Shown here piece after piece: positions 8,763 through 26,793 of a DNA stretch of 64,000 nucleotides. The stretch is taken from the NCBI GenBank assembly GCA_000004985.1, contig GG738865.1; one strand, 5' to 3'. The DNA is from Naegleria gruberi. Taxonomy: Eukaryota. Position 1 is the first letter of the stretch. The number at the start of each line of letters is the position of its first letter. The position numbers and the translations under genes were made by a program. A model generated the notes under the pieces. The model ran no database searches, was not told the DNA's origin, and worked only from the letters and a program-made list of their open reading frames with translations.

Positions 8763-10556
8763 TTACATTCTAAAGACACCGAATTGAGTTGGACTTTCAA
8801 TCTTTCCATTTTCACAAGCACTCAAACTCAAACCAAGAATTCTTCTTGTGTCACGTGGATCAATGACACCATCATCCCACAATCTGGCAGATGAGAAGTA
8901 TGGGTGACCTTCATGTTCATACTTGGCTCTAATACCATTCTTGAATTCTTCCATTTCTTGTTCTGGAACTTCCTTACCTAATCTCTTCATACCTTCAACC
9001 TTAACTTGGGAAAGGACGCCAGCAGCTTGTTCACCACCCATGACAGAGATTCTAGAATTTGGCCACATGTACAAGAATCTTGGATTGTAAGCTCTACCAC
9101 ACATACCATAGTTACCAGCACCGAAACTACCACCGAGGAGGACAGTAATCTTTGGAACCTTAGCACAAGCAACAGCCATGACCATCTTGGCACCATCCTT
9201 AGCAATACCATTGGTTTCGTATTGTTTACCAACCATGAAACCAGTAATATTTTGAAGGAACAAGAGTGGAATACCTCTTTGAGAACACAATTCAACAAAG
9301 TGAGCTCCCTTTTGAGCAGATGATGAGAACAAGATACCATTGTTAGCAATAATACCAACTGGCTTACCATAAATCTTGGCAAAACCTGTCACCAATGTAG
9401 TTCCGTATAATTGTTTGAATTCATCAAATCTACTTCCATCGACAATACGAGCAATAATATCTCTGACATCGAATGGTTTTCTACCATCACGTGGAATGAT
9501 ACCTAAAATTTCATCTGGATTATATTTTGGTTCTTCAAAAGATGTTGGAACTTCATTTCTATTACTATTATTCTTTCCCAAAAAGTCAGTCTTTTTCATA
9601 TTGAGATTTGAAATAATTCTTCTTGTCAAATAAATAGCTTCAGTTTCATCATTGGCATAGTAATCAGTGACACCACTTTGTCTACAGTGAACATCAGCAC
9701 CACCCAATTCTTCATCAGTAACTTCTTCACCAGTAGCAGCCTTAACTAATGGTGGACCACCCAAATAAATAGTACCATTACCCTTTACAATAATACTTTC
9801 ATCAGCCATTGCAGGAACATAGGCACCACCTGCAGTACATTTACCCATAACTACAGCAATTTGTGGAATACCTTGAGCACTCATATTGGCTTGATTGTAG
9901 AAAATTCTACCAAAGTGAAGTTTGTCAGGGAAAACATCAGCTTGATGTTCCAAGTTGGCACCACCACTGTCAGCAATGTAAATACATGGCAAGTTATTTT
10001 GTTCAGCAATTTCTTGGGCTCTCAAATGTTTCTTTACAGTGATTGGATAATATGTACCTCCTTTAACAGTTGCATCGTTAGCAACAATTACACACAATTG
10101 ATCGTGAATTTTACCAATACCTGTAATAATACCACCAGCAGGTACTTCATCCTTTCCGTACAATTCATAACCAGCCAATTGACTGAATTCGAGGAAAGGA
10201 GATCCATCATCCAACATTCTATTAATACGATCTCTAACCAAGAGCTTGTTTCTTGAAGTGTGCATCTTTCTATACTTTTCTCCACCTCCCAACTTGATCT
10301 TTTCAACCAAATTCTTCAAATCATTAACTCCTTGAATATTGTGAGTATAATTTGCCTTGTATTCGGCATCATGATGAATATTATTTTCAAGAATATTATG
10401 AGTATTTTCAGCACTTGTAATACTATGATAAAATCTATTATTATTTGATGAAGATCCAGCAGCTAATTGTTTGGCCAAAGAACCACCAACCAAACCAGAA
10501 CGTTGTTGTTGGTTGAGAAGAATGCTAGAAATTTTCTTGGTTGAATTTTTAAGCAT
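8763..10556 (-). CDS. MCCC2: 3-methylcrotonoyl-CoA carboxylase beta subunit (carboxyltransferase), mitochondrial; intronless, 597 aa
   Basis: Near-colinear match to MCCC2 carboxyltransferase blocks ([110 protein letters not shown]). The N-terminus looks like a mitochondrial presequence. Confidence 0.9.
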
Positions 10557-13409: not shown

Positions 13410-15455
13410 ATGCCTCCACCTCCTCCTTCAACATCTTCATCATCAACACCAAGAGGAAAGGCAATGCGATCTGCTTTTCTACCACCCGAAACCCCATTAT
13501 CAACCAAAATTAGAAAACCAATCAGGGCCACTCCTTCTTCTTCAACTTCCTCATCGACCAATGGCACTAAGCTACAAGAACAAGAACAGCTACAAGACCA
13601 ATGTATTAAAGTGTACATTAGAATTCGTCCGAACGATGATCATGACCAATTACAAATTGAATTTCTCAACAATTCTTCAATTCAAGTCACGTGTAAAAAT
13701 CAAGAAAAGGCAGATACACCAAAAGTATTCCTATTTGATCAGGTTTTGGATGAAAATGTTTCTCAGCAACAAGTTTTTGATTTGATTGGTGTTCCAGTTG
13801 TTGAAGAACTTCTTCAGGGGTTCAATGCTTCCATTTTAGGTTATGGACATACAGGATCTGGTAAAACATTTACAATGGGAACTAATCTTCATGAGATTGC
13901 AGATTCCTTTGAGAGTGGCAATTTGCCTGCTGCTTGTGGTTTATTGCCACGAATTGTTGAAAGGTTGCTAAACAGGAAGAAAGTGGACGAACAATTAAGC
14001 TGCTCCTTATTTGAAATTTATAATGGAGGAGTTTATGATTTATTTGGAGAGGCCAGCAAAAAGTGTAAGGTCAAGTATTCAAACGGTGTGGATGTTGTGA
14101 CCAATGCTAAAAAGAAGCTTATTCATTCACTGTCTGATCTTTCTTCCATTTCGTCTGGTTTAAAAAGGAGACATCAAAGTGCAACTGGACAAAATCTATC
14201 CTCATCAAGATCACACTGCATCTTTAGATTGTTTATCACAACTGCAGACAATACTGAAAGATGCCTAAACATGGTTGACTTGGCTGGATCTGAACGTCAA
14301 AAAACTGCCAACATTCACGCTGATAAAATGTTACTAGATGAAGCAAATTACATTAATACTTCATTGACAGTTTTGAAAAGATGCATTGAAGCAGTCTATA
14401 ATAATCAATCCAATACTGATAAGAAGACACTAGTTCCATACAGGGAAGATAATCTTGCCTTATTGTTGCATTCAACTTTGGAAGGAAATTCAAAAACTTT
14501 CTTTATTGGAAATATTGGAACTGCAAGTGAATCGATATCAACTTTGAATTATGCACAAACGGCAAGAAAGATTAAAAAGATGACTAGCAAGTTGAGTTCA
14601 ATGTTGAAGAAGAAATCAGGAGGATTGTTTGAAGAGGAAATTGAAAAGTTAAAGAAAGAGTTGGAAGAAACTAAGGGTAAATTGGATGAGGAAAGAGATA
14701 GCAAGACCAAACATATTGAAGAACTCTCACAGAAAATTGCATTATTAGAAACTAAACAACAGGAAGCTAATGAAATTCTCAAACAATCGAATACCATTAT
14801 AGAAGAGATGCAAATCAGAGACGATTCTCTGAAAGAAATTTGCTCAGAAAAAGAAGAAATTATTTCAAATCTCTTTGAAGAATTGTCAAAAGCCAGAAAA
14901 GAAAGCGAGCTCTTGGAGAAGGACAATTCAACATTGAAGAGTGAAAATTCAATTCTTTTGGAAGCAATTGAAAATCAATGTGAAATCATTAGACAACGAG
15001 ATAAGGAACATGATTCAGCTTTCCAAAATTTGAAAGAGCAACTAGACGAATATCAAAAACAGTCATCCTCAAAGACTCTTACAATTCAAACTCTGCGAGA
15101 TGAATTGAAAAAAAAGGACAAAATCATACAGAGAAAATCTTCAACTACTGCAGAACAACTTTATCAGACCATTGAAAATTTACTTAAAACAATTGAAGAT
15201 CAAAAGAAGACAATTCACATGTTTTTGAATGGAACGATGGAAGTTGTGGATATTGATAAGGAAGAAGCTCATGATGGTAATTCATGTGATAGTGATGATG
15301 ATGATGAGAAGGTGATGTCTGATTCTCCAGTTGTGAAATCAAACAAACGAAAGGTAATTTCTCCACTCCAAAATATTGTCTATGAATCAACAGATGAAAA
15401 TAATGAACCAGAATGTAAATATTCAAAATCTGATTTATTAGAATATTTAAAATAA
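13410..15455 (+). CDS. kinesin-like protein: N-terminal motor domain plus long C-terminal coiled coil, 681 aa
   Basis: Motor motifs: IKVYIRIRP, GYGHTGSGKTFTMG (P-loop), SSRSHCIFRLFI (switch I), VDLAGSERQ (switch II), INTSLTVLKRCIEA. Kinesin subfamily not assigned. Confidence 0.85.
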   Translation: MPPPPPSTSSSSTPRGKAMRSAFLPPETPLSTKIRKPIRATPSSSTSSSTNGTKLQEQEQLQDQCIKVYIRIRPNDDHDQLQIEFLNNSSIQVTCKNQEKADTPKVFLFDQVLDENVSQQQVFDLIGVPVVEELLQGFNASILGYGHTGSGKTFTMGTNLHEIADSFESGNLPAACGLLPRIVERLLNRKKVDEQLSCSLFEIYNGGVYDLFGEASKKCKVKYSNGVDVVTNAKKKLIHSLSDLSSISSGLKRRHQSATGQNLSSSRSHCIFRLFITTADNTERCLNMVDLAGSERQKTANIHADKMLLDEANYINTSLTVLKRCIEAVYNNQSNTDKKTLVPYREDNLALLLHSTLEGNSKTFFIGNIGTASESISTLNYAQTARKIKKMTSKLSSMLKKKSGGLFEEEIEKLKKELEETKGKLDEERDSKTKHIEELSQKIALLETKQQEANEILKQSNTIIEEMQIRDDSLKEICSEKEEIISNLFEELSKARKESELLEKDNSTLKSENSILLEAIENQCEIIRQRDKEHDSAFQNLKEQLDEYQKQSSSKTLTIQTLRDELKKKDKIIQRKSSTTAEQLYQTIENLLKTIEDQKKTIHMFLNGTMEVVDIDKEEAHDGNSCDSDDDDEKVMSDSPVVKSNKRKVISPLQNIVYESTDENNEPECKYSKSDLLEYLK

Positions 15456-15458
15456 AAA

Positions 15459-16529
15459 ATGGGAAATAGTCAACCAAGTAGAAATTTCACAAAAAATCAA
15501 TTAACAACACCAGTTTCCATTCCGATATTGTTTCTTATCGGAGATAAATCAAGTGGAAAGACGCAAACTATTCTTTCATATAACCACAGTTTCGAATTAA
15601 ACAGACGAACCCGACATTTAATTATTGAACTTTCGCGATGCATTCTTGGTTATGAAGCTCATCAAATTTCCAAGATTGACGAAAAACATTACAAAAGCAT
15701 TGCAAAAAAGTTAAAAAAAACTTGGAATTCCAAAAAGGAAAATTCTTTAAAATTCAACGCTGAAAATTTTAAAAGAAATTTAAATTATTTTGAAATTTCA
15801 ATTGAAAAACTTTTGGAAATTCTTGAAAAAATTGTAAAGGACGAATTTAGTACTGAATTGACCAATTCAGAAATTCAAATTATTGAACAAGCTCAACTAT
15901 TAATTCATCCATTTGCTTATTTCCTGGAAAATTGGTCAATTGGAACACAAACTAATCAATTAGTTGAATTATGTGCAATTCCAAGATCGAAATTATCACT
16001 TGATTCAGAAACATTTTCATGGATGAAAGAAAGAGAAAATTCTGTCGTTTTGGTTTTCATTTCATTGATTGGATGGTTGGATGAAACAGAGTATAATTTT
16101 CACAATTTTGATGAGATTGGAAAGGTGCTTGGACACGTTTCGAATAAGAAATTCGAATTTGTTTTTACAAAACCAGATCTGTTGTGGAAAATTCTGGCAA
16201 AAGGAGTGAAATATAAACATCAGGTGAAAGATACAAGAGCAGAGTTATTGGATATGGAAACTAAATACGGATTCGATCGAATAGTTAGCTCAATAATTTC
16301 AAAATACGAAACTGAACTACTGGCAGAATGCAATGATGCACAGAAACCTTTCAACTATCACATAGCAAGAACCAATTCATTGGACGAAATCTCAAAAGTG
16401 ATTGAAAGTGCCACTTCTGAATTTTCTCAATTTATTTCACCATTTATTATTCGAAAGACTTTATTCCAACCAGCACATTCCAATCAATTATTCTATTCAG
16501 ATCTATTAATATTGTGCATCTACCCTTAA
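15459..16529 (+). CDS. divergent G-alpha-like P-loop protein (356 aa): P-loop and NKxD-like motif retained, switch II degenerate
   Basis: The MGNSQPS N-terminus resembles a G-alpha start. ILFLIGDKSSGKTQTIL aligns with KLLLLGAGESGKSTIVK. EFVFTKPDLLWKIL aligns with IILFLNKKDLFEEKI. IARTNSLDE sits where TCATDT would be. No DVGGQR is seen (VLVFISLIGWLDE). Length fits a G-alpha. Assignment is tentative. Confidence 0.35.
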   Translation: MGNSQPSRNFTKNQLTTPVSIPILFLIGDKSSGKTQTILSYNHSFELNRRTRHLIIELSRCILGYEAHQISKIDEKHYKSIAKKLKKTWNSKKENSLKFNAENFKRNLNYFEISIEKLLEILEKIVKDEFSTELTNSEIQIIEQAQLLIHPFAYFLENWSIGTQTNQLVELCAIPRSKLSLDSETFSWMKERENSVVLVFISLIGWLDETEYNFHNFDEIGKVLGHVSNKKFEFVFTKPDLLWKILAKGVKYKHQVKDTRAELLDMETKYGFDRIVSSIISKYETELLAECNDAQKPFNYHIARTNSLDEISKVIESATSEFSQFISPFIIRKTLFQPAHSNQLFYSDLLILCIYP

Positions 16530-16883
16530 TAATCCTTTAAATACAGTGAAAAATTGATTATTTTTAACAGAAACTTTCCGTAATGAAATATAACAGTTGA
16601 CATTTCCATAACTCGTGTCAAGTTTCTATCCAATTCTATCTTCATATTACATGATGAAGAAGGTAGAGTAAGCAACTGCCAAACATCAAAATTTGGCCAG
16701 CTCTATACACCAAACAAACATCTTGAAAGTTTTGCAAGTTTAAATTTCAGATCTTGGAAAAAAACGTTGCAACTTTCCATAAACAGTTTCTATTGCCAGA
16801 ACTGTAAAGAAAAAACCAAACTAATCTTCATAGCGCTCAAATTAAACTTTTAGCTTATTAGAAGACACAAAAAAATAAACACA

Positions 16884-19162
16884 ATGAAGTGGTTCTCTAC
16901 TACACATGTGTTTTGTTTGTTGTTGATTTTGTTGGTAGTGGTAGAAAGTGAGTTGACAATTCTGTCAAGCGAAGATTTGGCATTTGACAGTTCCAGGAGT
17001 AATCAGAGTGTTATTGAAAGGAAATTATTATCAATTGACGAAAATATAAAGAGAATCAATATTTCTAACACAAATTTCCTTCAAAATTTAGCAAATGACA
17101 ATTGGCAGGTAATCGCATCAACTCAATCACTAGTAATTGTTAGTTTACAGAATTTAACAACCATTGATGATGTTCTTCTACTCGCATCACGTAAACTAAT
17201 TAAAATTGGTGTACACACTATTATTGGAATAGACATTAGGTTTGTGGAGACGAAACTTCAACTAAACTCGACGAAACACTTCTACAAGACTGAGAGAATG
17301 GACAGAACATCTTCTGATTGTTGGATGGGAAATGTTTTCGAATATTTCGATGTTGTAATTTCAAGTGATTTGTTTCTTCCAATTCTCATAAGACAAAATC
17401 GAGATTGTTATGTCACAACCCCAGTGTTTAGAACATTAGATTATCAAGATTTGAGTTTAGTTTCATTTTCTCCCTTTGAAATAGTAATAGCAAACTCAAA
17501 AGCATCATTTAATGATCTTGTCACCTATCAATATGAAATAATGAACGACATGTTCAAAAATTTACAAATTTCACAACAAGTTTGTGAATCAACGACAAGT
17601 TCATACAAGGAACATGATTATTCAGTGTTGAGAATTGAACAATTTTTCACAAATATTTCAGCGGATGATTTTTTATTTATTGTGGAATATCATGCGTTGG
17701 ATAATTGGACACTAAATCAAACATTTACTAATTTGGCATTTGAAATGGTGTTAAATAGAACTGGATATAGTGTTGATAAGCTCAATTCTATGAAAAGATC
17801 ATTCTTTCCCACAAAATGTTACTCCTGTCTAACGTCATCTTGTATGTGGGAAGACAGAGCTAGTCCAGTAGCTTCAAATGCAGATGGTGTCAGTATTGGA
17901 GGTGGTATCTCTCTATTCATTGCATTATTTTTCTATTTTCCTTCTTTAATTCTATTCAGAAACAGAGAATCGGTCAAGATTCGTCTCATTGTTCCATACG
18001 TTTCGGTTCTGAGTCCAGTTTTCATCATGTTGATTCAGATTTTTCAACTTATCAAGCCGTGTTATTTGCTCTATCAGATTGCTGTTAATTTTCTATCCTG
18101 TTGGTCGATTATCATTTATTTTTTGATTTGTATTCGATTCGTCTTGTTGAGAAATATTTATACGCTAGTTCTGTATCTTAATGAGAGACATATCAAGATT
18201 TTAAAATGGTTAGTGAGTAAGAGAGTTGCAAGTATTGGATCCTTTCTGATGGGTGTGTTGATTGGATGTTTAGTTTCCCTCGTTCCCCTTGTTGGATTTT
18301 ATGATGTAAGTTGTTATTCGAATCCCAAACTAAACATCTTCTTTGAAAATAGGAATTCTTTGGAAATCGTGCTGCCATACAATGTGCTTTCATCACCTTT
18401 GGAATCACTGTAGCCATTGCAACATTATCATTACTAGCACTTGTCATTCATTTCCTCTTCAAGATTCCAATAATTTGGAGAAGAGGTCTATTATATATTC
18501 TATTCTTTGATGATCCATTTCAAATCAAGTTTGATATTTTATTCTTCTCACTCAATACTATAGTCATTACAGTTTATTTATTCACAGAGGCGAATCAGAA
18601 TTATGTTTACAGTATTTTTGCACCACTCCTATCTCACAATATTGGAATGTTGTATAGAGGAGGTTTAGTTTTGATTATTGAATGGTTTAAAACGATTTAT
18701 TTTAGAAAACAACTGAATATGACTGAGAAGGAGAAAGTGGACGAATTGGTTCTTCATTTGGAAAATCCAGAATTCTTCAATTTAATGAAGGAATTTGTTG
18801 CAAAGGAAACTTCACTTGAGAACTTGAAATTTTACGAAGAATTGAAACAAATAGAAAGAATGAGTCAATCTGACAAGAATCCCAAAATCAGTCACGAAGA
18901 AATGATTCGAATAAGGGACAAGTACTTTAAAGAAAATGTTCTATACGAATTGAATATTGGAGGCCAAACTAAGCAATCGTTTCACAATCTCGTAGCAACA
19001 GCTGCAAATCCAAATGAAGAAGTTCGCCTTAAAGATTTGAAATTCATTCTCGATGAAGAATTGATGGGAAATTTGAGTGATGCCTATTTGAGATTGAAAC
19101 AACAACCAGGTTTTAAGAGATGGAAAGTAGCTCACAATATTTATATTGAGGAAAAGGAATAG
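16884..19162 (+). CDS. seven-transmembrane protein with C-terminal RGS domain: signal peptide, large ectodomain, 7 TM, RGS; 2 exons (16884-18305, 18353-19162), 47-nt intron
   Basis: The N-terminus is a cleavable-signal-like helix. Seven hydrophobic helices are split across a GTAAGT...AATAG intron that preserves the frame into ORF 18647-19162. The C-terminal 140 aa match the RGS box (LENLKFYEELKQ; IRDKYFKENVLYELNI; FILDEELMGNLSDAYLRLKQQPGF). Confidence 0.7.
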
Positions 19163-19448
19163 TTTGGGAGTTTTGGAAAAATTTGTACTTTTCTCTATCC
19201 CAAGATTGAGTTTTGATTCTTGAATTCATCTTGGTTCCTTGAAAATCAGTGAAATTACTTTTCGTTCCATTTATTGGAGGAATTCTCTGAATAGTTCACT
19301 CTCGTATTAGGAAAAGCAAACTCATTCCTTTATGAGAGCTCTATGGAACGTTGAAAACCTCATAATCAGTTTGAGAATCCATTAATGTGAAATTTTAGAA
19401 AATATTCTTTACTATTATGGTTAAAGAAATATAGTTCTGGATAATCTT

Positions 19449-21133
19449 TTATTCGTCAGCAATTGCTTTCATATTTTTAATTTCTTCCTCGTGTTTCTCT
19501 CTCAATTCCTTCTTATTGAGCGATTTCTTAAGAATTGCCAAGAATAAGAAAGCTGGAATTAACCAAATAAATAAAACTAAAAGTAAGGTTTGAGGAAGTT
19601 TGAGTTTGGACAAGATACTATAAACACCACTGGTCACAGAAATTCCCAAATAGGTAAATGTTGAAAAGAAACCCATAAATTCACACTTCTTTTCCAATGG
19701 AATTAATTTGCTCATTAATCCACGAGCTACACTAGCATTCCATGCATATAAAAATCCAACAACCAGAAATTGAGCCAAAACAATGTACTTTTCCACTTTC
19801 ATTGAAATTGTAATAAATACTGAATTGAAGAAGAATTAGAAAATTCTCATTCAATTTGATTTGAAAACTTACTCGAAAGTGTTAAAACTCCAAAAAGTGA
19901 ATTTTGACCTGCCAAAACATAAATGTCATGAACCTTGAATAATTTCTCAAAAATTACACCTCCAATCACACCACCAACCATGGCAATCTTGAAATACAAG
20001 TTCAATAACACCTCCTGTTCAAGTCCAAAATTATAAATATCAATAAAAAGAGGTCCCAAATAAATTGTCACAACAGTACCAGCTGTGGAGAAGAATAAAT
20101 AGGAAAAGAGGAAAATCCAACAGTGATAGTATTGCTCATTCCTTCTCCAATGGATGAAGGTCTCAGCAAGTGATTTTAAAGATTTGGCAACCACTGCATA
20201 GACCTTTCCCAATCCTCTCAAATATTTTGGTAATTTGGAGAAACATTCAGGAATTTGCAAAGTTTGTGCTGTTTTGGCAGAAATTGGCTCTGGATTCAGA
20301 GTGACCTTATCTACACCATTTGGACTCAGAATGACAAACAGAGAGACCAGAATGGTGAGACTTGTGAAAACGAGAACCCACCAATTTTCTCTCGAAATAT
20401 CCCAAACTCCTCCCGAAAAAACACTCGAAGGTACAAAGGCCAATACCAATAATCCAACAAGATTGACACCAAATCCAATGAAATTACCCAACAAACTCAA
20501 AATCATCATATTCTTCTTATCAAAACAAGGTAAGAGAGCATTATTATTCATTACTGAAAATCTCAAAAAGAACATGGCCAATATATACACAATTTCACAA
20601 ATAGCCAAATGAGAAGTATAATCCTGTGGTGATTCATGTGGTAATTTATCAGTGAAAAACAATCCAATTGTTGCCAAAATACCCAAATACATTGTCACCA
20701 TCATTGAACTCCTAATTAATTTCAAATTATCAACCAAAGATCCCAAAATTGGCAATGTCAATGCACTTGCCAATGTTGTCACTGTATTAATAATTGAAAA
20801 TGCAGTAGAATACTCAGCTCCACTACCAGAAGCAACATTATGTAAAATCTTTGGATACAGAGCTGAATAGACAATTGTGTTCAACACATTAAAAACAATA
20901 CTAAACGATAACCATCCAATTGAACTTTTCACAACATGAAACAGTATCTGTGTTCTACTACTATGACCCATTCTATTCATTCCATTCTTAGCATCATCAT
21001 GTTCTGCATCATCATCATTCATCATTAATTGTTTTGATTCTTCATTATCAACAAATGATTGATCATGATGATCTATTGATTGAAAACGAGCATGATGATC
21101 ATATTCATCACCTCCATCTCCTCTTTGTATCAT
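19449..21133 (-). CDS. polytopic membrane transporter (MFS-like), 2 exons (21133-19873, 19819-19449), 53-nt intron, about 543 aa
   Basis: About 12 hydrophobic segments. The Asp/His-rich cytosolic N-terminus has no TM helices. A GTAAGT..TTCAG intron joins the 428-aa and 117-aa ORFs in frame. The family call is weak. Confidence 0.5.
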
Positions 21134-21149
21134 TTCTTGTTCTTCTGTT

Positions 21150-21250
21150 CTGTTGTTGTTGATGATGATGTTGAAGAAGAAATGATGATGCAGAATTATT
21201 GTGATGATGAGGATGAGGATGATGATTATTGGAGAGTGATGATAGATCGG
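21150..21250. repeat. low-complexity trinucleotide-rich tract (GTT/GAT/GAA/ATG-type triplets) in the upstream region of the transporter gene
   Basis: Direct reading: ...gttgttgttgatgatgatgttgaagaagaaatgatgatg...gatgatgaggatgaggatgatgat... Confidence 0.5.
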
Positions 21251-21704
21251 AGGGTGCCTTGACGAGTGGTGTAAATTTACTTGGCATTAATTCTTCTCTT
21301 TTTCACAACAAGTGTATGTAGTACTATTAATTATTAAATGTTTGAATATATTGAATATATTGAATTCCTCCGATGAAAATATTTGGATGAGGATGTTGGT
21401 GAGTGATGTGAAGAATCTTTTTTTCAAAGGGTTTTTTGAAAGTTGAGAAGGAGCGGTTTGGCAATGGATGTGTGAAAAGATATTTTGTAAAGATTGGTTC
21501 AGTATGTGATGATGGTAAATTGTATTGAGGCAAAGGGCAAAACGTTGAAGACATTGTTAGTGATATTGAAAAGGGGACTGTTTGATATTTAACAGAAATG
21601 GATTTTCACAAAAGAAATAGTTAAAAATAATCTCAAAGTTGAACTAGAGTCTAGAAATTCTGAAGAAGAGAGAAAGGATATCTTTTATTGACATGCATTA
21701 ATGA

Positions 21705-22073
21705 TCACTTGTTGGATTGATAGATTGAGGAGAGGCTCTCAATTATATCTTTACTCTTTGCAAGTTTTTCTTTTCCAAATTCAATCAAATAACCAATAGA
21801 TCTTATCTGATTCAAGAGCAGCAAAATACAACTCATAGATATGATTGCATATAAATTATTGAAACTACAATAAATCAAAGCAATAAAGTTCAGTAAAGTG
21901 TATATTAACATGCCTAGAGGATCTCTTGTTGCCATTGAATAAAACCCACATAAAACTGCCAACAAAAGCAAAATACGTATGAGTGAAAAACTATAGTTAA
22001 GGGGAGGAGAAAATCTGGAAAAACAAGATAAGATCACCAAAAATCCAATTAGCACCAATTGAAAGGAGAACAT
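21705..22073 (-). CDS. small hydrophobic protein (122 aa, about 3 TM), weak call
   Basis: ATG ORF with three hydrophobic helices. No homology recognisable. Confidence 0.25.
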   Translation of the reverse strand: MFSFQLVLIGFLVILSCFSRFSPPLNYSFSLIRILLLLAVLCGFYSMATRDPLGMLIYTLLNFIALIYCSFNNLYAIISMSCILLLLNQIRSIGYLIEFGKEKLAKSKDIIESLSSIYQSNK

Positions 22074-22297
22074 GTTTCCTAATTTCGAAAATCGGTACTG
22101 ATTTGGAAAGAGGCAATCAGTGGTTCAATATGTTTGGCAAACATGTCGTAAAGTGGTGTCGTGTTGCTTTCAGAGTTGAGCAAGATTGGTTCTGTATGTC
22201 GAGACATTTTTTAAGTTGCTTTCAACCAACTAGAATAATACGCATGCACCTTCTCTGATTGGTCCAAATACGAACTTTACAAAAAATGAATACGTAT

Positions 22298-23746
22298 CTA
22301 TATTGTCTTGATGGTGAGTTTGATGATAGGGAATGTTTGGGTGTTGAGGATATGCAAGAGCGCATCATTGTCGAATCTAACCAGTTTAAAAATTAAATCA
22401 TCCCAGTAGTGAAATGTACAAAATTGGTAGTGAGGAAGTTGTGGAAATTTGGAGCGAATTTTTGAGATTATTGTTGAGAAGTTAGATTCTTGTAGAGTGT
22501 TAGAAATGAGAACTGTTTCGTCTTGGAAAGTGGCATAAACCACAACCCTTCTATCAATAGATTGATTACTACCACTACTTGCGATTCTTGTCTGAATATT
22601 TAACTGTTCCATTGTCGGCGTGCTTGTAGAAAGAAATATCTCTTCATAATCTTTTAAAGTCCTAGATGGGATTGGAAGAGCTGTTGAGGGTGTGAAATAC
22701 GAAGTGTTTGCATTCTGAACTTCATTCTCTAAGGTGGTGACAATAGTTTCATGACGTTCATAAAAGATTGGTTTGATCGTAGAAACATCAACTGGTGCAT
22801 TACGCTTAATATCAGTTTCATTCGACAGTGGTGTTTTAGCATTTTTCTCTTCTTCTATTTTATGAATCTCTGAAGCAGTACGGTTTTTGAACAGTCTTTG
22901 ATTATTTGGCAGTTCCTTATTAATTTTTTCTTTTGAAATGGGTGTCTTTTTTGGAGAGGAGGTTTCTTGTTTCCTCTTTTTTCTGTGCTTTTTCAAAGGG
23001 CCAACAATCTGTCCAGCCAACCGTGGATCGTTGGAGGTAGCTGACCTTGTCAATTTAATTGGTGCACTACTTCTTGTTCTCCTAGTATTTGAATTTGGAT
23101 GTGAGGAATTTGACTCATCATTGTATTCACTATCAGATTCAGAATTAGAGTATAATGAAGAAGACGATGATGAATCTGACTCACTCTCTGAAGATTCATT
23201 CAATACTACCTTTGGTTTTCTTCCTCGTTTAGCCTTCACCTTCCCAATATCACTGGTTGACTCTTGTGAGAAATCAAAACTATGTTGTTTGGCTATTGCT
23301 TTGGCAACCTCCACAACTTGTGGTGTCAATTTGGCATAGAATTCTTCAATTTTCTTCAAATAATCCTTTTTAAATGCTTCCTTCTCCTCTTCAGAACCAC
23401 TAACTGATTGAAGGCTTTTTTTAATAATTGTAGTAATTTCTCTTCTAGCCTTTATCACATCTGCATTATCCTCGATCTTATTAGATATAGAACGCCACAA
23501 ATTAGAAATAAATGAATTATTCTCTAGAAGAAAGGGGGCTGGCAATCCCGAAAGGAATTTGAATAGTTTGACATATTTGCACTCACCACTCGAATGGTGG
23601 GTAAATATACAGTGAGGACATCTCATGGCAAATTTTGAGTCGTCAATTGCCCCTTTCTCTGAACTCTTTTCATTCTTCTTTTCAACAAATAAAACAGGCT
23701 GTTCCTCAGGCTGCACTTGCTTGTTCATATCGGAAATCTGCTCCAT
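22298..23746 (-). CDS. hypothetical Ser/Lys-rich nuclear-type protein (482 aa) with a compact C-terminal beta-grasp/PB1-like module
   Basis: Long ORF with a Cys/His cluster near the N-terminus (CPHCIFTHHSSGEC), an extensive Ser/Asp/Lys-rich disordered middle and a conserved-looking C-terminal 80 aa (VVVYATFQDETVLIS...FCTFHYWDDLIFKL). Confidence 0.45.
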   Translation of the reverse strand: MEQISDMNKQVQPEEQPVLFVEKKNEKSSEKGAIDDSKFAMRCPHCIFTHHSSGECKYVKLFKFLSGLPAPFLLENNSFISNLWRSISNKIEDNADVIKARREITTIIKKSLQSVSGSEEEKEAFKKDYLKKIEEFYAKLTPQVVEVAKAIAKQHSFDFSQESTSDIGKVKAKRGRKPKVVLNESSESESDSSSSSSLYSNSESDSEYNDESNSSHPNSNTRRTRSSAPIKLTRSATSNDPRLAGQIVGPLKKHRKKRKQETSSPKKTPISKEKINKELPNNQRLFKNRTASEIHKIEEEKNAKTPLSNETDIKRNAPVDVSTIKPIFYERHETIVTTLENEVQNANTSYFTPSTALPIPSRTLKDYEEIFLSTSTPTMEQLNIQTRIASSGSNQSIDRRVVVYATFQDETVLISNTLQESNFSTIISKIRSKFPQLPHYQFCTFHYWDDLIFKLVRFDNDALLHILNTQTFPIIKLTIKTI

Positions 23747-23994
23747 TCTTCTTTAAACAGATTCTGTAAAATCAATTTATATTTAATAATTTAATAAATT
23801 AAAAAAGGGGTAGAAATTAATAATGGGTTGATGGGTTGTCACTGATAAAAAGCCTTGTTCATCAGTGTTTGCTATTATTTTTTTAAAACAAGGCTTGATT
23901 GATTTGGGGATTTGTCTTTTTAGTGACAACTCTAGCCGCACAGAAGTAATGAAGCTTTCAATGAAAATGGTCTTTATTTGTACAATGTGGTATT

Positions 23995-25434
23995 TTACAA
24001 CATTTTTATAATTACATCAATATACAATGTGTTATCTACAAGGAATCCACTCTGGGGGTCATTTAATCTTTCTAGAGCGAGTAATTGTTGCCTACCTAAA
24101 CTGGCACTATCTTTTTGAAAGTGTTCATTGAAACATTCGTGTTCTACTGATAGATTTTGCATGTCTTTCTGGTTGACCACTCTGAGGGTAAAGTCACAAT
24201 AGGCACTCGATTGATTATTATTCTCAATGACCAGACTCAAAAATACACTTATATGAGTATTGAATGAATCTCCCAAAGGATAGAGAACTACTTTCCATGT
24301 ATGTCCACCAATTTGAATTAATGGAGAGCTAACATGTTTCTTACTAATTTTAGAATAGTTTGGAATTCTCCAACGATAGTGGGCATGAGCATTTTGTTTG
24401 AATACTTGAACTACATAAATTCCCTTTCTATTTGGATTAATTCTTCCTTCATCTCCTCTCAATACTGCTCTCCTATTCTTGACAAAACTTGTTTCATTGG
24501 TACTATAATATTTGTAAGCCTCAAAAAGTAATTCGTGAGGAACAATATCCAAAGGTTCCACAGAATTCAATAAATATTCAGGTTTAATGAGTGGGAATCT
24601 GATAAAGTCGACTACATTCTTAATGATATCTCTCACAGATAATGTAGAATCTTTTCGGTCAATCCTGATCATACCCCAAGAAACTACCTTTTCTATTTCA
24701 AATTGTTAACAATTAATGATTATAAAGAACTTACCAAATAAATATTCTTCCTTTAAATTTAAATAATCCGATTGAAGAACTTCAATTAATGAATCCTCAG
24801 AAAGTAGAGTGAGGAAAGTATCATTTTCAAAACATTCATCCACATGATCTAATGCCACACTGTAAATAATTATTACTAAATATAATAAAATTACCTTCAA
24901 TAAATCTCAAACATAATTTCTTTAAAAGAGGTAATTCAAGCTCTCCTGCTGCATCAATCAGAGGTACAACATTTGCAGCTGAAATTTGTACTTTTCCACA
25001 ATAAATAAATCTCAAAACTTCCTTGAACACTATTTCCAAATTAATTTTAAAGATTAAAAACCATAAAACCCACCATTTGGAAGAACATTTGGCTTCTTGA
25101 TTGGATTTTCTTCAGAACTGTTACTCTCACGAAATCCGAGAGTGAACATGTTACGAAAATATGGACAACGAGCAGCTAGGACACATTTGTGTGCTGATAT
25201 TAATTCCTGATCATGATGTTCAGATCCAACAAGAAAGAAAACATCTCTGAAATGTTCCATCTGATATAATTGTTCAAAATCCGTACTCAATGTACTAGTA
25301 TCTTGTAAATCAGTTCCGACTAATCCAAAAATTTGATCACCATAATTTTGACTAATATTCAAATCGGAATCATCAAGATTTGGAGTCTCCACACCATTAG
25401 GTTCATCAACAGCTGATCCTAGTTGATGAACCAT
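23995..25434 (-). CDS. BTB/POZ protein with BACK-like linker and C-terminal MATH (TRAF-like) domain; 4 exons (about 25434-25079, 25037-24884, 24848-24750, 24694-23995)
   Basis: Exons 1-2 carry the BTB core (FRDVFFLVGSEHHDQELISAHKCVLAARCPYFRNMF ... EVLRFIYCGKVQISAANVVPLIDAAGELELPLLKKLC). The last exon carries a MATH signature (YRWRIPNYSKI...IQIGGHTWKVVLYPLGD...ISVFLSLVIENN...YCDFTLRVVNQKD). Three short GT..AG introns connect in-frame ORF fragments. Confidence 0.65.
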
Positions 25435-25680
25435 TTTTTTCTATTTAAAAATAAATTGTTTAATATTAATAAATAATATTTTAAACAATGTTGTAAAACT
25501 CCCAATCCATCGTATTCATATAATTAATGAATTTATCAATAGGATACCTGTTAAGGATGAATATTAAAAATTGTTTTTGTTAACATTTGTATGATGATCA
25601 CGTTGGCGCCAAAACCATGTACAATTCCTACATCATCTTTTTCACCTCAAAGCCTCATCATACAACAATAAAAGAAAAAA

Positions 25681-26793
25681 ATGTCTACAAAAGGTGAATC
25701 GACCCGTTTGAAACCAAAGAATGCACCTCTCATTGAGGAAATTAGTGATGATGAAGAAGAAGTCACAATTGAAGAAGAAAAACCAAAGATTTCAAAGAGA
25801 CAAGAAAAGAGGGAGAGAAAGGCTTCAAGAATGATGGATCCTGCTGCTACTGAAGACAATGATTCCGAAGAATTAAAAGCCCTCAAAAGAGAAGTTCTCA
25901 AAAAAGCATTCAGCACATTTAAAGAGACTGAGGAAAAGAAACAAACAAACAAGTCAGCAATTGCCTACAACTTTATTGTCTTTGTTTTCATTGTCTCAGT
26001 GCTATCCTTATTTATTTTTCAAGCATTTATCATGAAGATTGCACCAACAGATGTAATTACTCCAAAAGAAACTCAGGAATTATTCTCTGGCAACAGCTCA
26101 ATCAAGGCCTTTAATATTCTATTAGGTATGGCATACTCTCCTAGACTTACTCTCCTCTATTTGGCTGTCACTGATAGACAAGTTATTGTGGATCTTTTTG
26201 ACAAGTCTGGATTAGTTTTTGGAAAGGACAAGAACAGCTATCTTGATTTGAGTCTTAAGGTGATGGGGTGTGCCATCTCTCCACGTTTATTCTTCATTTT
26301 ACAGAGTGCCAACGTGTTGATTGATAGACATTATGATCTTGTTGAGAGTGGAACAGTTTTTTCTGTAATTTCAGAACAACTTCAAGACTTTGGAGGTCTC
26401 TACTCTTTGGTTACTGACTCCTTCTGGAAGAATGACAAGACATTTGAGACTCTCTTCTTTTCATTCTCAATTTTCTGTCAAGTAGTATTTTTAATCTTTG
26501 ACTTTGCTTCGAGAATTGGATTTTTCAAGAGAGGAGTTAAATTCTTAATCATGCTTCTCCTTTGGGTTGTATTGAACTCTTACTTTATCCCTCCAATGAT
26601 TTTGTCTTACATGTTCAAGATTACCTATTTCATTCAGCCTGGATTAACTTTGATCATGTACTTGACTGAAAGTTTGGAAATCAAATACGAAAAGCAATTA
26701 CTCGATTCTCAAGAAAGAGAACAAAGAGAAGCCTTCTTAAAGGATGCTCGTGAAACTTTGAAAAAGGCTCAACAATCCAAAAAGCAAGAATAA
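25681..26793 (+). CDS. membrane protein with acidic N-terminus, about 6 TM segments and C-terminal coiled coil (370 aa)
   Basis: ATG ORF with multiple hydrophobic helices. Family not recognised. Confidence 0.45.
   Translation: MSTKGESTRLKPKNAPLIEEISDDEEEVTIEEEKPKISKRQEKRERKASRMMDPAATEDNDSEELKALKREVLKKAFSTFKETEEKKQTNKSAIAYNFIVFVFIVSVLSLFIFQAFIMKIAPTDVITPKETQELFSGNSSIKAFNILLGMAYSPRLTLLYLAVTDRQVIVDLFDKSGLVFGKDKNSYLDLSLKVMGCAISPRLFFILQSANVLIDRHYDLVESGTVFSVISEQLQDFGGLYSLVTDSFWKNDKTFETLFFSFSIFCQVVFLIFDFASRIGFFKRGVKFLIMLLLWVVLNSYFIPPMILSYMFKITYFIQPGLTLIMYLTESLEIKYEKQLLDSQEREQREAFLKDARETLKKAQQSKKQE

What the first reader, a model, noticed from the sequence alone, without database searches (positions are those of the whole stretch)
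16884..19162. Seven-transmembrane receptor-like protein with a large ectodomain and a C-terminal RGS box
After a signal peptide and an ectodomain of about 330 aa come seven hydrophobic helices (four before and three after a 47-nt intron), then a clear RGS domain. A receptor that carries its own GTPase-accelerating domain is a restricted architecture, known from plant RGS1-type proteins and a few protists. The large N-terminal ectodomain is not like plant RGS1 and is unassigned.
Basis: partly seen in the sequence, partly recalled or inferred. Interest (0 to 1): 0.5.

Follow-up and report, generated by a model that had tools for sequence, protein, structure and literature searches.

The report
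Naegleria 7TM receptor with RGS domain
This Naegleria gruberi gene encodes a cell-surface protein with a small-molecule-sensor-like outer domain, seven membrane helices and a built-in G-protein "off switch" (RGS) domain; it belongs to a receptor family already described and partly tested in Naegleria, and the only new detail is the likely fold of its outer domain.

Summary
Exon 16884-18305, a 47-nt GT..AG intron (18306-18352) and exon 18353-19162 give a 743-aa protein. It has a signal peptide, a roughly 315-aa ectodomain, seven hydrophobic helices (four before the intron, three after) and a C-terminal RGS box (Pfam PF00615, 31.7 bits against a cutoff of 23.9).

The window is Naegleria gruberi. 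Full-length homologues (35-43% identity, E about 1e-130) occur only in Naegleria and Willaertia. The N. fowleri homologue is one intronless ORF, so the RGS exon belongs to the same gene.

The architecture is not new. Bosch et al. 2022 reported 28 7TM-RGS proteins in N. fowleri and showed GAP activity for three of their RGS domains.

The most likely function is a receptor-GAP: it keeps self-activating G-alpha subunits off, and a small ligand bound by the ectodomain modulates that activity.

The "G-alpha-like" neighbour is not substantiated.

Verdict: a new member of a known kind, of moderate-to-low interest.

The parts
16884..18305 (+). Coding exon 1 (aa 1-474): signal peptide, ectodomain, TM1-TM4, start of extracellular loop 2
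   Evidence: ORF and translation; aligned to homologues over its full length
18306..18352 (+). 47-nt intron, GTAAGT...TAG, phase 0, in extracellular loop 2
   Evidence: Sequence. Removing it restores the frame and gives a gap-free alignment to homologues. The N. fowleri homologue is intronless. L002 has an intron at the same site. No RNA evidence was available.
18353..19162 (+). Coding exon 2 (aa 475-743 plus stop): TM5-TM7 and RGS box
16884..16949 (+). Signal peptide (aa 1-22, MKWFSTTHVFCLLLILLVVVES)
   Evidence: Hydropathy peak 2.59 at aa 9-27; an N-terminal hydrophobic segment is conserved in the family. The cleavage site is inferred, not predicted with a dedicated tool.
16950..17816 (+). 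Ectodomain (aa 23-311). The structured part from about aa 55 has a periplasmic-binding-protein type II (NMT1/SsuA/PhnD-like, Venus-flytrap-like) fold. Conserved motifs: IGVHT, ERMDRxxxDCWMGNVFEYFD, RQNRDC, HDY
17817..17843 (+). Juxtamembrane cysteine motif C312-x2-C315-x4-C320 (CYSCLTSSC)
   Evidence: C315 is invariant, and C312 and C320 are at least 90% conserved, over 30-36 family members. The role in disulfide coupling to C393 is inferred.
17892..17960 (+). TM1 (aa 337-359)
17979..18047 (+). TM2 (aa 366-388)
18063..18149 (+). TM3 (aa 394-422), preceded by the nearly invariant C393 and ending in the conserved RFxxLRNxY motif on the cytoplasmic side
18225..18299 (+). TM4 (aa 448-472)
18377..18451 (+). 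TM5 (aa 483-507)
18518..18589 (+). TM6 (aa 530-553), preceded by the conserved cytoplasmic KG...FLFFDDPF motif
18608..18682 (+). TM7 (aa 560-584), with a conserved GG
18758..19135 (+). RGS box (aa 610-735). Counterparts of the RGS4 G-alpha-contact residues: S628, E630, N631, N675, D717, R721
   Evidence: Pfam PF00615 31.7 bits, above the 23.9 cutoff. phmmer alignments to RGS14 and RGS18. Alignment to RGS4, whose sequence was recalled from memory. Structural match to RGS16, RGS4, RGS8 and RGS9.

Best explanation
The gene encodes a member of the Naegleria/Willaertia family of seven-transmembrane RGS proteins ('receptor-GAPs'). Shown here: a secretory signal, a glycosylatable ectodomain of about 290 structured residues with a periplasmic-binding-protein type II (Venus-flytrap-like) fold, and a conserved CxxCx4C stalk. 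These are followed by a lineage-specific 7TM module oriented N-out/C-in, and a cytoplasmic RGS box that keeps the residues RGS4 uses to contact G-alpha. Inferred by analogy with AtRGS1 and with the N. fowleri 7TM RGS2-4 domains tested in vitro: the RGS box accelerates GTP hydrolysis on one or more of Naegleria's many G-alpha subunits. Some of those subunits exchange nucleotide spontaneously, so the receptor holds them off at the membrane. A small solute binding in the cleft of the ectodomain would change the 7TM conformation, possibly through a disulfide between the stalk and C393 in extracellular loop 1. That change would alter GAP access or remove the receptor from the surface, letting G-alpha-GTP accumulate. 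The direction of regulation and the ligand are unknown.
For: Gene model and single transcript. Seven TM helices, N-out/C-in: family-averaged hydropathy and the positive-inside rule, sequon distribution, AF2 helices. RGS: Pfam above the gathering score. RGS4 contact residues S85/E87/N88/N128/D163/R167 are matched by S628/E630/N631/N675/D717/R721, and the corresponding positions are kept in the Naegleria homologues. Fold match to RGS16/RGS4 complexes. Family: 80 representative proteins match the ectodomain+7TM profile. All named ones are Naegleria or Willaertia. Nineteen of 36 scanned members carry Pfam RGS. The 7TM profile also hits longer proteins (896-1188 aa) with other N-termini and a C-terminal RGS. 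Ectodomain fold. Mechanistic precedent: N. fowleri has 28 7TM-RGS proteins; the RGS domains of Nf 7TM RGS2-4 are GAPs for Nf G-alpha2/3/5/7, and Nf G-alpha5 and 7 are self-activating (PMC9283941). AtRGS1 model: PMC3718340.
Confidence: 0.6

Rival explanations
1. It is a conventional GPCR that activates a G protein as an exchange factor when ligand binds. The tethered RGS box only shortens the signal: a built-in terminator rather than the primary output.
For: The cytoplasmic face of the 7TM module carries strongly conserved motifs that could be a G-protein coupling surface: RFxYLRNLY at the end of TM3, NRKxIKxKG...FLFFDDPF before TM6. Naegleria has both slow-exchanging and self-activating G-alpha subunits (PMC9283941). 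7TM-RGS proteins and canonical GPCRs coexist in several lineages (PMC3971589).
Against: There is no sequence relation to any GPCR family with known GEF activity. No 7TM-RGS protein has been shown to have GEF activity (PMC3718340). The only function demonstrated in this family is GAP activity.
Confidence: 0.15
2. The RGS box is a non-catalytic scaffold, as in GRKs, axin or sorting nexins. The protein signals or traffics independently of G-alpha GTP hydrolysis.
For: The RGS box is divergent (31.7 bits; PDB phmmer E only 0.6-1). Two RGS4 interface positions are changed, S164 to A and R166 to L. Some RGS domains have lost GAP activity (PMC3971589). With 229 RGS proteins in N. gruberi, functional drift is plausible.
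Against: The residues most critical for GAP function in RGS4 (E87, N88, N128, D163, R167) all have counterparts that are kept across the Naegleria homologues. The best structural matches are catalytic R4/RZ/R7 RGS domains, not RGS-like domains. Related Naegleria 7TM-RGS boxes are active GAPs.
Confidence: 0.15
3. The ectodomain is not a ligand-binding PBP. It is a structural, adhesion or dimerisation domain that only resembles one lobe of the fold, and the receptor is regulated some other way, such as by phosphorylation, endocytosis or cell contact.
For: Only about half of the model aligns to PBPs, and scores are moderate. The second half is helical. There is no sequence-profile link for the candidate itself. 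Other Naegleria 7TM-RGS proteins carry adhesion-type ectodomains (EGF, lectin, GPS).
Confidence: 0.25
4. Gene-model artefact: exon 1 and exon 2 are separate genes, or the locus is a pseudogene.
For: No transcript data were available. The exact protein is not in the protein collection.
Against: The alignment across the junction is gap-free. The N. fowleri homologue is intronless. Both exons have intact frames with conserved motifs. TM5-7 lack a start codon of their own. A four-TM protein ending in loop 2 would have no counterpart among the full-length family members.
Confidence: 0.03

Closest known systems
Naegleria fowleri 7TM RGS proteins (28 genes; Nf 7TM RGS1-4 studied by Bosch, Jeck and Siderovski, J Biol Chem 2022, PMC9283941)
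   Same: Same genus and same overall design: extracellular N-terminus, 7TM, C-terminal RGS box. The candidate's 7TM profile also matches long RGS-bearing proteins (896-1188 aa) over the 7TM region only, so the 7TM+RGS cassette is shared. The isolated RGS boxes of Nf 7TM RGS2-4 are GAPs for Naegleria G-alpha subunits.
   Different: The four studied proteins are much larger (RGS boxes at residues 1036-1678). They are described with EGF-like repeats, lectin domains and GPS motifs. The candidate is 743 aa with a PBP-II-like ectodomain, which that paper does not mention. I could not map the candidate's N. fowleri homologues (P0001, P0004) to that paper's gene list.
Arabidopsis AtRGS1 (plant 7TM-RGS)
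   Same: 7TM plus a C-terminal RGS box acting on a self-activating G-alpha. It is the proposed model of a receptor whose ligand relieves GAP activity (PMC3718340).
   Different: Homology of the 7TM modules was not tested here. The candidate's 7TM profile recovered only proteins whose named members (20 looked up) are all heterolobosean, among 1.84 billion representatives.
Class C GPCRs (mGluR, CaSR, GABA-B, T1R; Dictyostelium Grl)
   Same: Design logic: a bilobed periplasmic-binding-protein-type sensor, a cysteine-containing linker, then 7TM.
   Different: Class C receptors use a type I PBP (ANF_receptor), an NCD3G cysteine-rich domain and a 7tm_3 module, and they activate G proteins. The candidate has none of these Pfam families. 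Its sensor resembles type II PBPs, and its output domain is a GAP.
Type II PBP sensor domains fused to other outputs: BvgS/EvgS sensor kinases, ionotropic glutamate receptor / plant GLR ligand-binding domains, Plasmodium PfVFT1
   Different: Sequence identity is 7-13%. The outputs are kinases or ion channels, not 7TM-RGS. By Foldseek and Pfam the closest subfamily is NMT1/THI5/SsuA/PhnD rather than the amino-acid-binding group.

Membership tests
7TM-RGS receptor-GAP proteins (architecture class) | Seven transmembrane helices, N-terminus outside, C-terminus inside | tested here: met
   Seven family-averaged hydrophobic segments at aa 339-582; K+R 16 inside against 2-3 outside; signal peptide and eight sequons in the N-terminal domain; seven long helices in the AF2 model. 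No dedicated topology predictor was available.
7TM-RGS receptor-GAP proteins (architecture class) | RGS box C-terminal to TM7 in the same polypeptide | tested here: met
   Pfam PF00615 31.7 bits, above the 23.9 cutoff, aa 610-693; RGS fold match; one gene.
7TM-RGS receptor-GAP proteins (architecture class) | G-alpha-contact residues of catalytic RGS boxes retained | tested here: met
   S628/E630/N631, N675, D717 and R721 align to RGS4 S85/E87/N88, N128, D163 and R167 (RGS4 sequence from memory). N675 is also aligned to the RGS14 and RGS18 Asn. S164 and R166 equivalents are not retained.
7TM-RGS receptor-GAP proteins (architecture class) | GAP activity on a cognate G-alpha; ligand-dependent regulation | not testable with these tools
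   Needs biochemistry. There is precedent only for other Naegleria family members.
Naegleria/Willaertia 7TM-RGS family (homology) | 7TM module homologous to that of other heterolobosean RGS-bearing 7TM proteins | tested here: met
   The profile search finds 80 representatives, 56 at E below 1e-10. Named ones are N. gruberi, N. fowleri, N. lovaniensis and W. magna. Shared motifs: PSxKRRLxxPY, RFxYLRNLY, FLFFDDPF, GG.
Plant RGS1-type proteins | Short extracellular N-terminus; 7TM homologous to AtRGS1 | tested here: not met
   The candidate has a 315-aa ectodomain. No plant protein appears among the 20 hits whose sources were looked up, all of which are Naegleria, Willaertia or unnamed metagenome contigs. 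Direct comparison with AtRGS1 was not run.
Periplasmic-binding-protein-like II superfamily (NMT1/THI5, SsuA, PhnD, SBP_bac_3) | Two alpha/beta lobes joined by two crossover strands; structural match to solved members | tested here: met
Periplasmic-binding-protein-like II superfamily (NMT1/THI5, SsuA, PhnD, SBP_bac_3) | Sequence-profile match to a member family | tested here: inconclusive
   Candidate: no Pfam hit; family profile against PDB sequences: none; hhalign against E. coli SsuA: none. Paralogue P0023 (W. magna) does pass Pfam NMT1 (22.3 against 20.5 bits) over the stretch aligned to candidate aa 78-159.
Periplasmic-binding-protein-like II superfamily (NMT1/THI5, SsuA, PhnD, SBP_bac_3) | Binds a small ligand in the inter-lobe cleft | not testable with these tools
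   Needs a binding screen or a structure.
Class C GPCRs | ANF_receptor (type I PBP) + NCD3G + 7tm_3 | tested here: not met
   None of these Pfam families is hit at E up to 1. The fold matches are type II, not type I, PBPs.
Heterotrimeric G-alpha (for the upstream ORF 15459-16529) | Pfam G-alpha domain with G1-G5 motifs and a helical insertion | tested here: not met
   No G-alpha hit at E up to 1; no PDB match; no homologues. BLASTP against human G-alpha-i1 (from memory) gives only the P-loop, E 0.89. By eye there is a GxxxxGKT P-loop and a TKPD in place of NKxD at collinear spacing, but no DxxGQ or TCAT.

The most novel reading that the evidence does not exclude
The roughly 750-aa proteins with this ectodomain form a distinct, undescribed receptor class in Heterolobosea. 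There are at least eight paralogues in N. gruberi besides this one, plus members in N. fowleri, N. lovaniensis and Willaertia. The class would be a type II periplasmic-binding-protein (Venus-flytrap) sensor wired through a cysteine stalk to a 7TM-RGS cassette. It would be a convergent counterpart of class C GPCRs whose output is G-protein inactivation rather than activation. It would also be the first 7TM-RGS proteins with an identifiable small-molecule-binding module.
Probability: 0.5. Interest if true: 0.5.

Novelty: new member of a known kind. Interest (0 to 1): 0.3.

Why it matters
Whether 7TM-RGS proteins are real ligand-gated receptors is still open. That holds even for AtRGS1, where glucose action may be direct or indirect (PMC3718340). 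Bosch et al. state that it remains to be determined how extracellular cues alter GAP activity in Naegleria. A family member whose ectodomain is a soluble, expressible solute-binding fold makes the question testable: screen the isolated ectodomain for ligands, then ask whether the ligand changes GAP output or surface residence. For Naegleria biology, including the pathogen N. fowleri, which has homologues, it points to chemosensing of small solutes through G-protein de-repression. Beyond that, the gene is one more paralogue in a large, already published expansion.

Tried and rejected
1. Pfam on the candidate ectodomain, on 30 ectodomains and on 18 7TM modules gave only noise.
2. Profile searches of PDB sequences with the ectodomain (A4) and 7TM (A5) alignments found nothing.
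3. hhalign of the ectodomain profile against the single E. coli SsuA sequence gave probability 0.05. This is a weak test because the template is a single sequence.
4. Full-length AF2 with six sequences was poor (pLDDT 46) and usable only for the RGS part.
5. The AFDB50 fold library was not available.
6. The upstream ORF as G-alpha was tested with Pfam, PDB, a homologue search and BLASTP against G-alpha-i1. All were negative or insignificant.
7. A look for paralogues or a signalling cluster in the window found no other family member there. Neighbours are MCCC-beta, a PPR protein, kinesin-1, an MFS-like transporter and a MATH-domain protein, so there is no functional clustering.
8. An exact look-up of the candidate and of alternative ORF models found nothing in the protein collection. 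I considered that the gene is unannotated in N. gruberi, but GenBank numbering leaves room for one plus-strand model here, so I do not claim that.
9. The contig look-up for the N. gruberi neighbour was not on record.
10. Anantharaman et al. 2011 (Gene 475:63), the most likely place for a prior domain description, is not held. No held paper contains both '7TM-RGS' and 'periplasmic'.
Full report
**Observation.** The stretch 16884-19162 on the + strand holds an ATG-initiated ORF that runs to 18413, and a second frame that is open to the TAG at 19160-19162. Removing 18306-18352 (47 nt, GTAAGT...TAG) joins them in phase 0 into a 743-aa product. Every number in the finding is correct.

**Organism.** The window is Naegleria gruberi. 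The neighbouring methylcrotonoyl-CoA carboxylase beta ORF (8766-10556, minus strand) is 100% identical to the N. gruberi protein. Five neighbouring ORFs are exact matches to N. gruberi GenBank proteins on an 820,293-bp contig.

**Is it one gene?** Three lines say yes.
- The spliced junction (...VGFYD|EFFGNRAA...) aligns without a gap to four full-length homologues from N. fowleri and N. lovaniensis. These are 35-37% identical over 89-95% of the query, with E from 6e-121 to 4e-132.
- The N. fowleri homologue P0001 is a single uninterrupted 2493-nt ORF containing ectodomain, 7TM and RGS (L001).
- The closest relative (43% identity) sits on an environmental contig that has an intron at the same place in extracellular loop 2, plus a second one (L002).
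- Unspliced, ORF 1 would stop after TM4, and TM5-7 would have no start codon.

No transcript data were available to me.

**Topology.** Hydropathy averaged over 28 aligned family members then gave an N-terminal signal-like segment and exactly seven hydrophobic segments between aa 339 and 582. The predicted cytoplasmic loops and tail hold 16 Lys+Arg, against 2-3 in the extracellular loops. All eight N-x-S/T sequons upstream of TM7 lie in the ectodomain and none in the 7TM region. The full-length AF2 model is poor (pLDDT 46) but places seven long helices at the same positions.

**RGS box.** Pfam RGS scores 31.7 bits, above the gathering score of 23.9. phmmer aligns it weakly to RGS14 and RGS18. 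The C-terminal domain of the model superposes on solved RGS domains: RGS16 at TM 0.82 and rmsd 2.3 A. The top 18 Foldseek hits, and nearly all of the top 45, are RGS or RGS-complex chains, although every E-value is 0.015 or higher because the query is the whole low-confidence 743-aa model. In an alignment with human RGS4 (sequence recalled from memory), the G-alpha-contact residues have counterparts that are kept in the Naegleria homologues:

| RGS4 residue | Candidate residue |
|---|---|
| S85 | S628 |
| E87 | E630 |
| N88 | N631 |
| N128 | N675 |
| D163 | D717 |
| R167 | R721 |

S164 and R166 are replaced.

**Family.** A HMMER profile of ectodomain+7TM, searched against 1.84 billion representative proteins, found 80 matches, 56 below 1e-10.
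- About 35 matches cover both ectodomain and 7TM and are 700-830 aa long.
- Others match only the 7TM part and have different, often much larger, N-termini (up to 1371 aa). Several of these end in a Pfam RGS domain.
- All members that carry names are from N. gruberi (at least eight paralogues), N. fowleri, N. lovaniensis or Willaertia magna.
- Nineteen of 36 scanned members pass Pfam RGS.
- The 7TM module has its own conserved motifs: PSxKRRLxxPY after TM1, RFxYLRNLY at the cytoplasmic end of TM3, NRKxIKxKG...FLFFDDPF before TM6, and GG in TM7.
- The module has no detectable relation to any Pfam GPCR family or PDB chain.

The picture is a lineage-specific 7TM+RGS cassette combined with interchangeable ectodomains.

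**Ectodomain.** It has no Pfam hit, but it is strongly conserved. Within the close subfamily the conserved motifs are IGVHT, ERMDRxxxDCWMGNVFEYFD, RQNRDC, HDY and FPxxCYSCxTSxCMWED. Across the wider family, C146, R170, R173, D189, P197, C234, D245, C312, C315 and C320 are kept.

With a 30-sequence alignment, AlphaFold2 gives a confident model (pLDDT 84.2, pTM 0.82).
- Foldseek puts THI5/NMT1, PhnD, ThiY and SsuA on top (E 5e-5, probability 1.0, TM about 0.36).
- Independently, the W. magna paralogue P0023 passes the Pfam NMT1/THI5 threshold (22.3 against 20.5 bits) over residues that align to candidate aa 78-159.

Against this, only about half of the model superposes and its C-terminal half is helical. 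The family profile finds no PBP in PDB sequences, and hhalign against E. coli SsuA is negative. I put the PBP-II assignment at about 0.75.

**What is known.** The architecture is published for this genus.
- Bosch, Jeck and Siderovski (PMC9283941) report 28 7TM-RGS proteins in N. fowleri, some with EGF, lectin and GPS ectodomains.
- They show that the isolated RGS boxes of Nf 7TM RGS2-4 accelerate GTP hydrolysis on Nf G-alpha2/3/5/7, of which G-alpha5 and 7 are self-activating. They state that ligand regulation remains to be determined.
- The four proteins they cloned are over 1200 aa. They are therefore the long-ectodomain class, not this one.
- De Mendoza et al. (PMC3971589) count 229 RGS proteins in N. 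gruberi and find 7TM-RGS proteins in many lineages.
- I found no held paper that links a periplasmic-binding-protein fold to a 7TM-RGS protein. The most relevant older survey, Anantharaman et al. 2011, could not be read.

**Mechanism.** Three things are shown: the domain order, the topology and the retention of the RGS catalytic-interface residues. The rest is inferred. [quoted passage not shown] A solute bound by the ectodomain changes this, perhaps through a stalk-to-loop-1 disulfide (C312/C315/C320 with the nearly invariant C393), as proposed for AtRGS1. The ligand and the sign of regulation are unknown. The rivals are a conventional GEF receptor with a built-in terminator, a non-catalytic RGS scaffold, and a non-binding structural ectodomain. 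They are listed with their tests.

**Neighbour.** The ORF at 15459-16529 starts 3 nt after the stop codon of kinesin-1, in the same frame. It has a P-loop-like GDKSSGKT and a TKPD. It has no Pfam G-alpha hit, no PDB hit and no homologue, and it gives only E 0.89 against G-alpha-i1. Calling it G-alpha-like is not justified on present evidence. No other family member or G-protein component lies in the window.

**Verdict.** The gene is a further paralogue of a known, partly characterised Naegleria 7TM-RGS family. The fold assignment of its ectodomain is a modest new point that makes the ligand question experimentally approachable.

Noticed in passing
window 15459-16529 (+), and 13410-15455 (+): An orphan 356-aa ORF (MGNSQ..., P-loop-like GDKSSGKT, TKPD) begins 3 nt after the stop codon of the kinesin-1 gene and in the same reading frame. 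It has no homologue, no Pfam hit and no PDB hit. It is unclear whether it is a separate gene, a degenerate G-alpha-like GTPase or part of another model.
   Followed up: partly
window 15456-25680, + strand: GenBank protein numbers of flanking N. gruberi genes (EFC44949 kinesin-1 at 13410-15455, EFC44951 at 25681-26793) leave room for only one plus-strand model between them. Two plus-strand ORF sets lie there: the orphan ORF and the 7TM-RGS gene. Neither product, nor anything nearly identical, is in the protein collection. One of the two is either unannotated, or the record is not visible.
   Followed up: partly
L002 (ENA ERZ27315067 k141_1739053) 552-2779: The closest relative (43% identity) lies on a 3-kb metagenome contig. 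A prokaryote-style gene caller split it into separate proteins (a 479-aa one, P0005, and a 195-aa one at 2192-2779) at two short introns. One intron is at the same loop-2 site as in the window and the second is after FFDDPFY. Eukaryotic genes in metagenome protein sets can look like truncated families.
   Followed up: partly
window 19449-21133 (-): Two minus-strand ORFs (19449-19802 and 19847-21133) are separated by 44 nt. The shorter one hits Pfam MFS_1 weakly. They look like one transporter gene with a short intron, convergent with the 3' end of the 7TM-RGS gene.
   Followed up: no
proteins P0052, P0056, P0060, P0065, P0069, P0070, P0076: The candidate's 7TM profile matches proteins of 896-1371 aa only over their 7TM region. 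Three of them have a C-terminal Pfam RGS. Their large N-terminal regions have no Pfam hit at E below 0.001. The 7TM+RGS cassette seems to have been combined with several unrelated ectodomains.
   Followed up: partly
protein P0023 (Willaertia magna KAL9643344.1) aa 73-145: This is the only family member found to keep a recognisable Pfam NMT1/THI5 signature in its ectodomain. It is a useful bridge sequence for tracing where the ectodomain came from, possibly a bacterial solute-binding protein.
   Followed up: partly
window 16884-19162 versus 8766-10556: The receptor is only 35-37% identical to its best N. fowleri matches, while the neighbouring MCCC-beta is 86% identical between the two species. 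Either the receptor evolves very fast or the N. fowleri proteins are paralogues rather than orthologues. There is no synteny around the N. fowleri gene (L001).
   Followed up: partly
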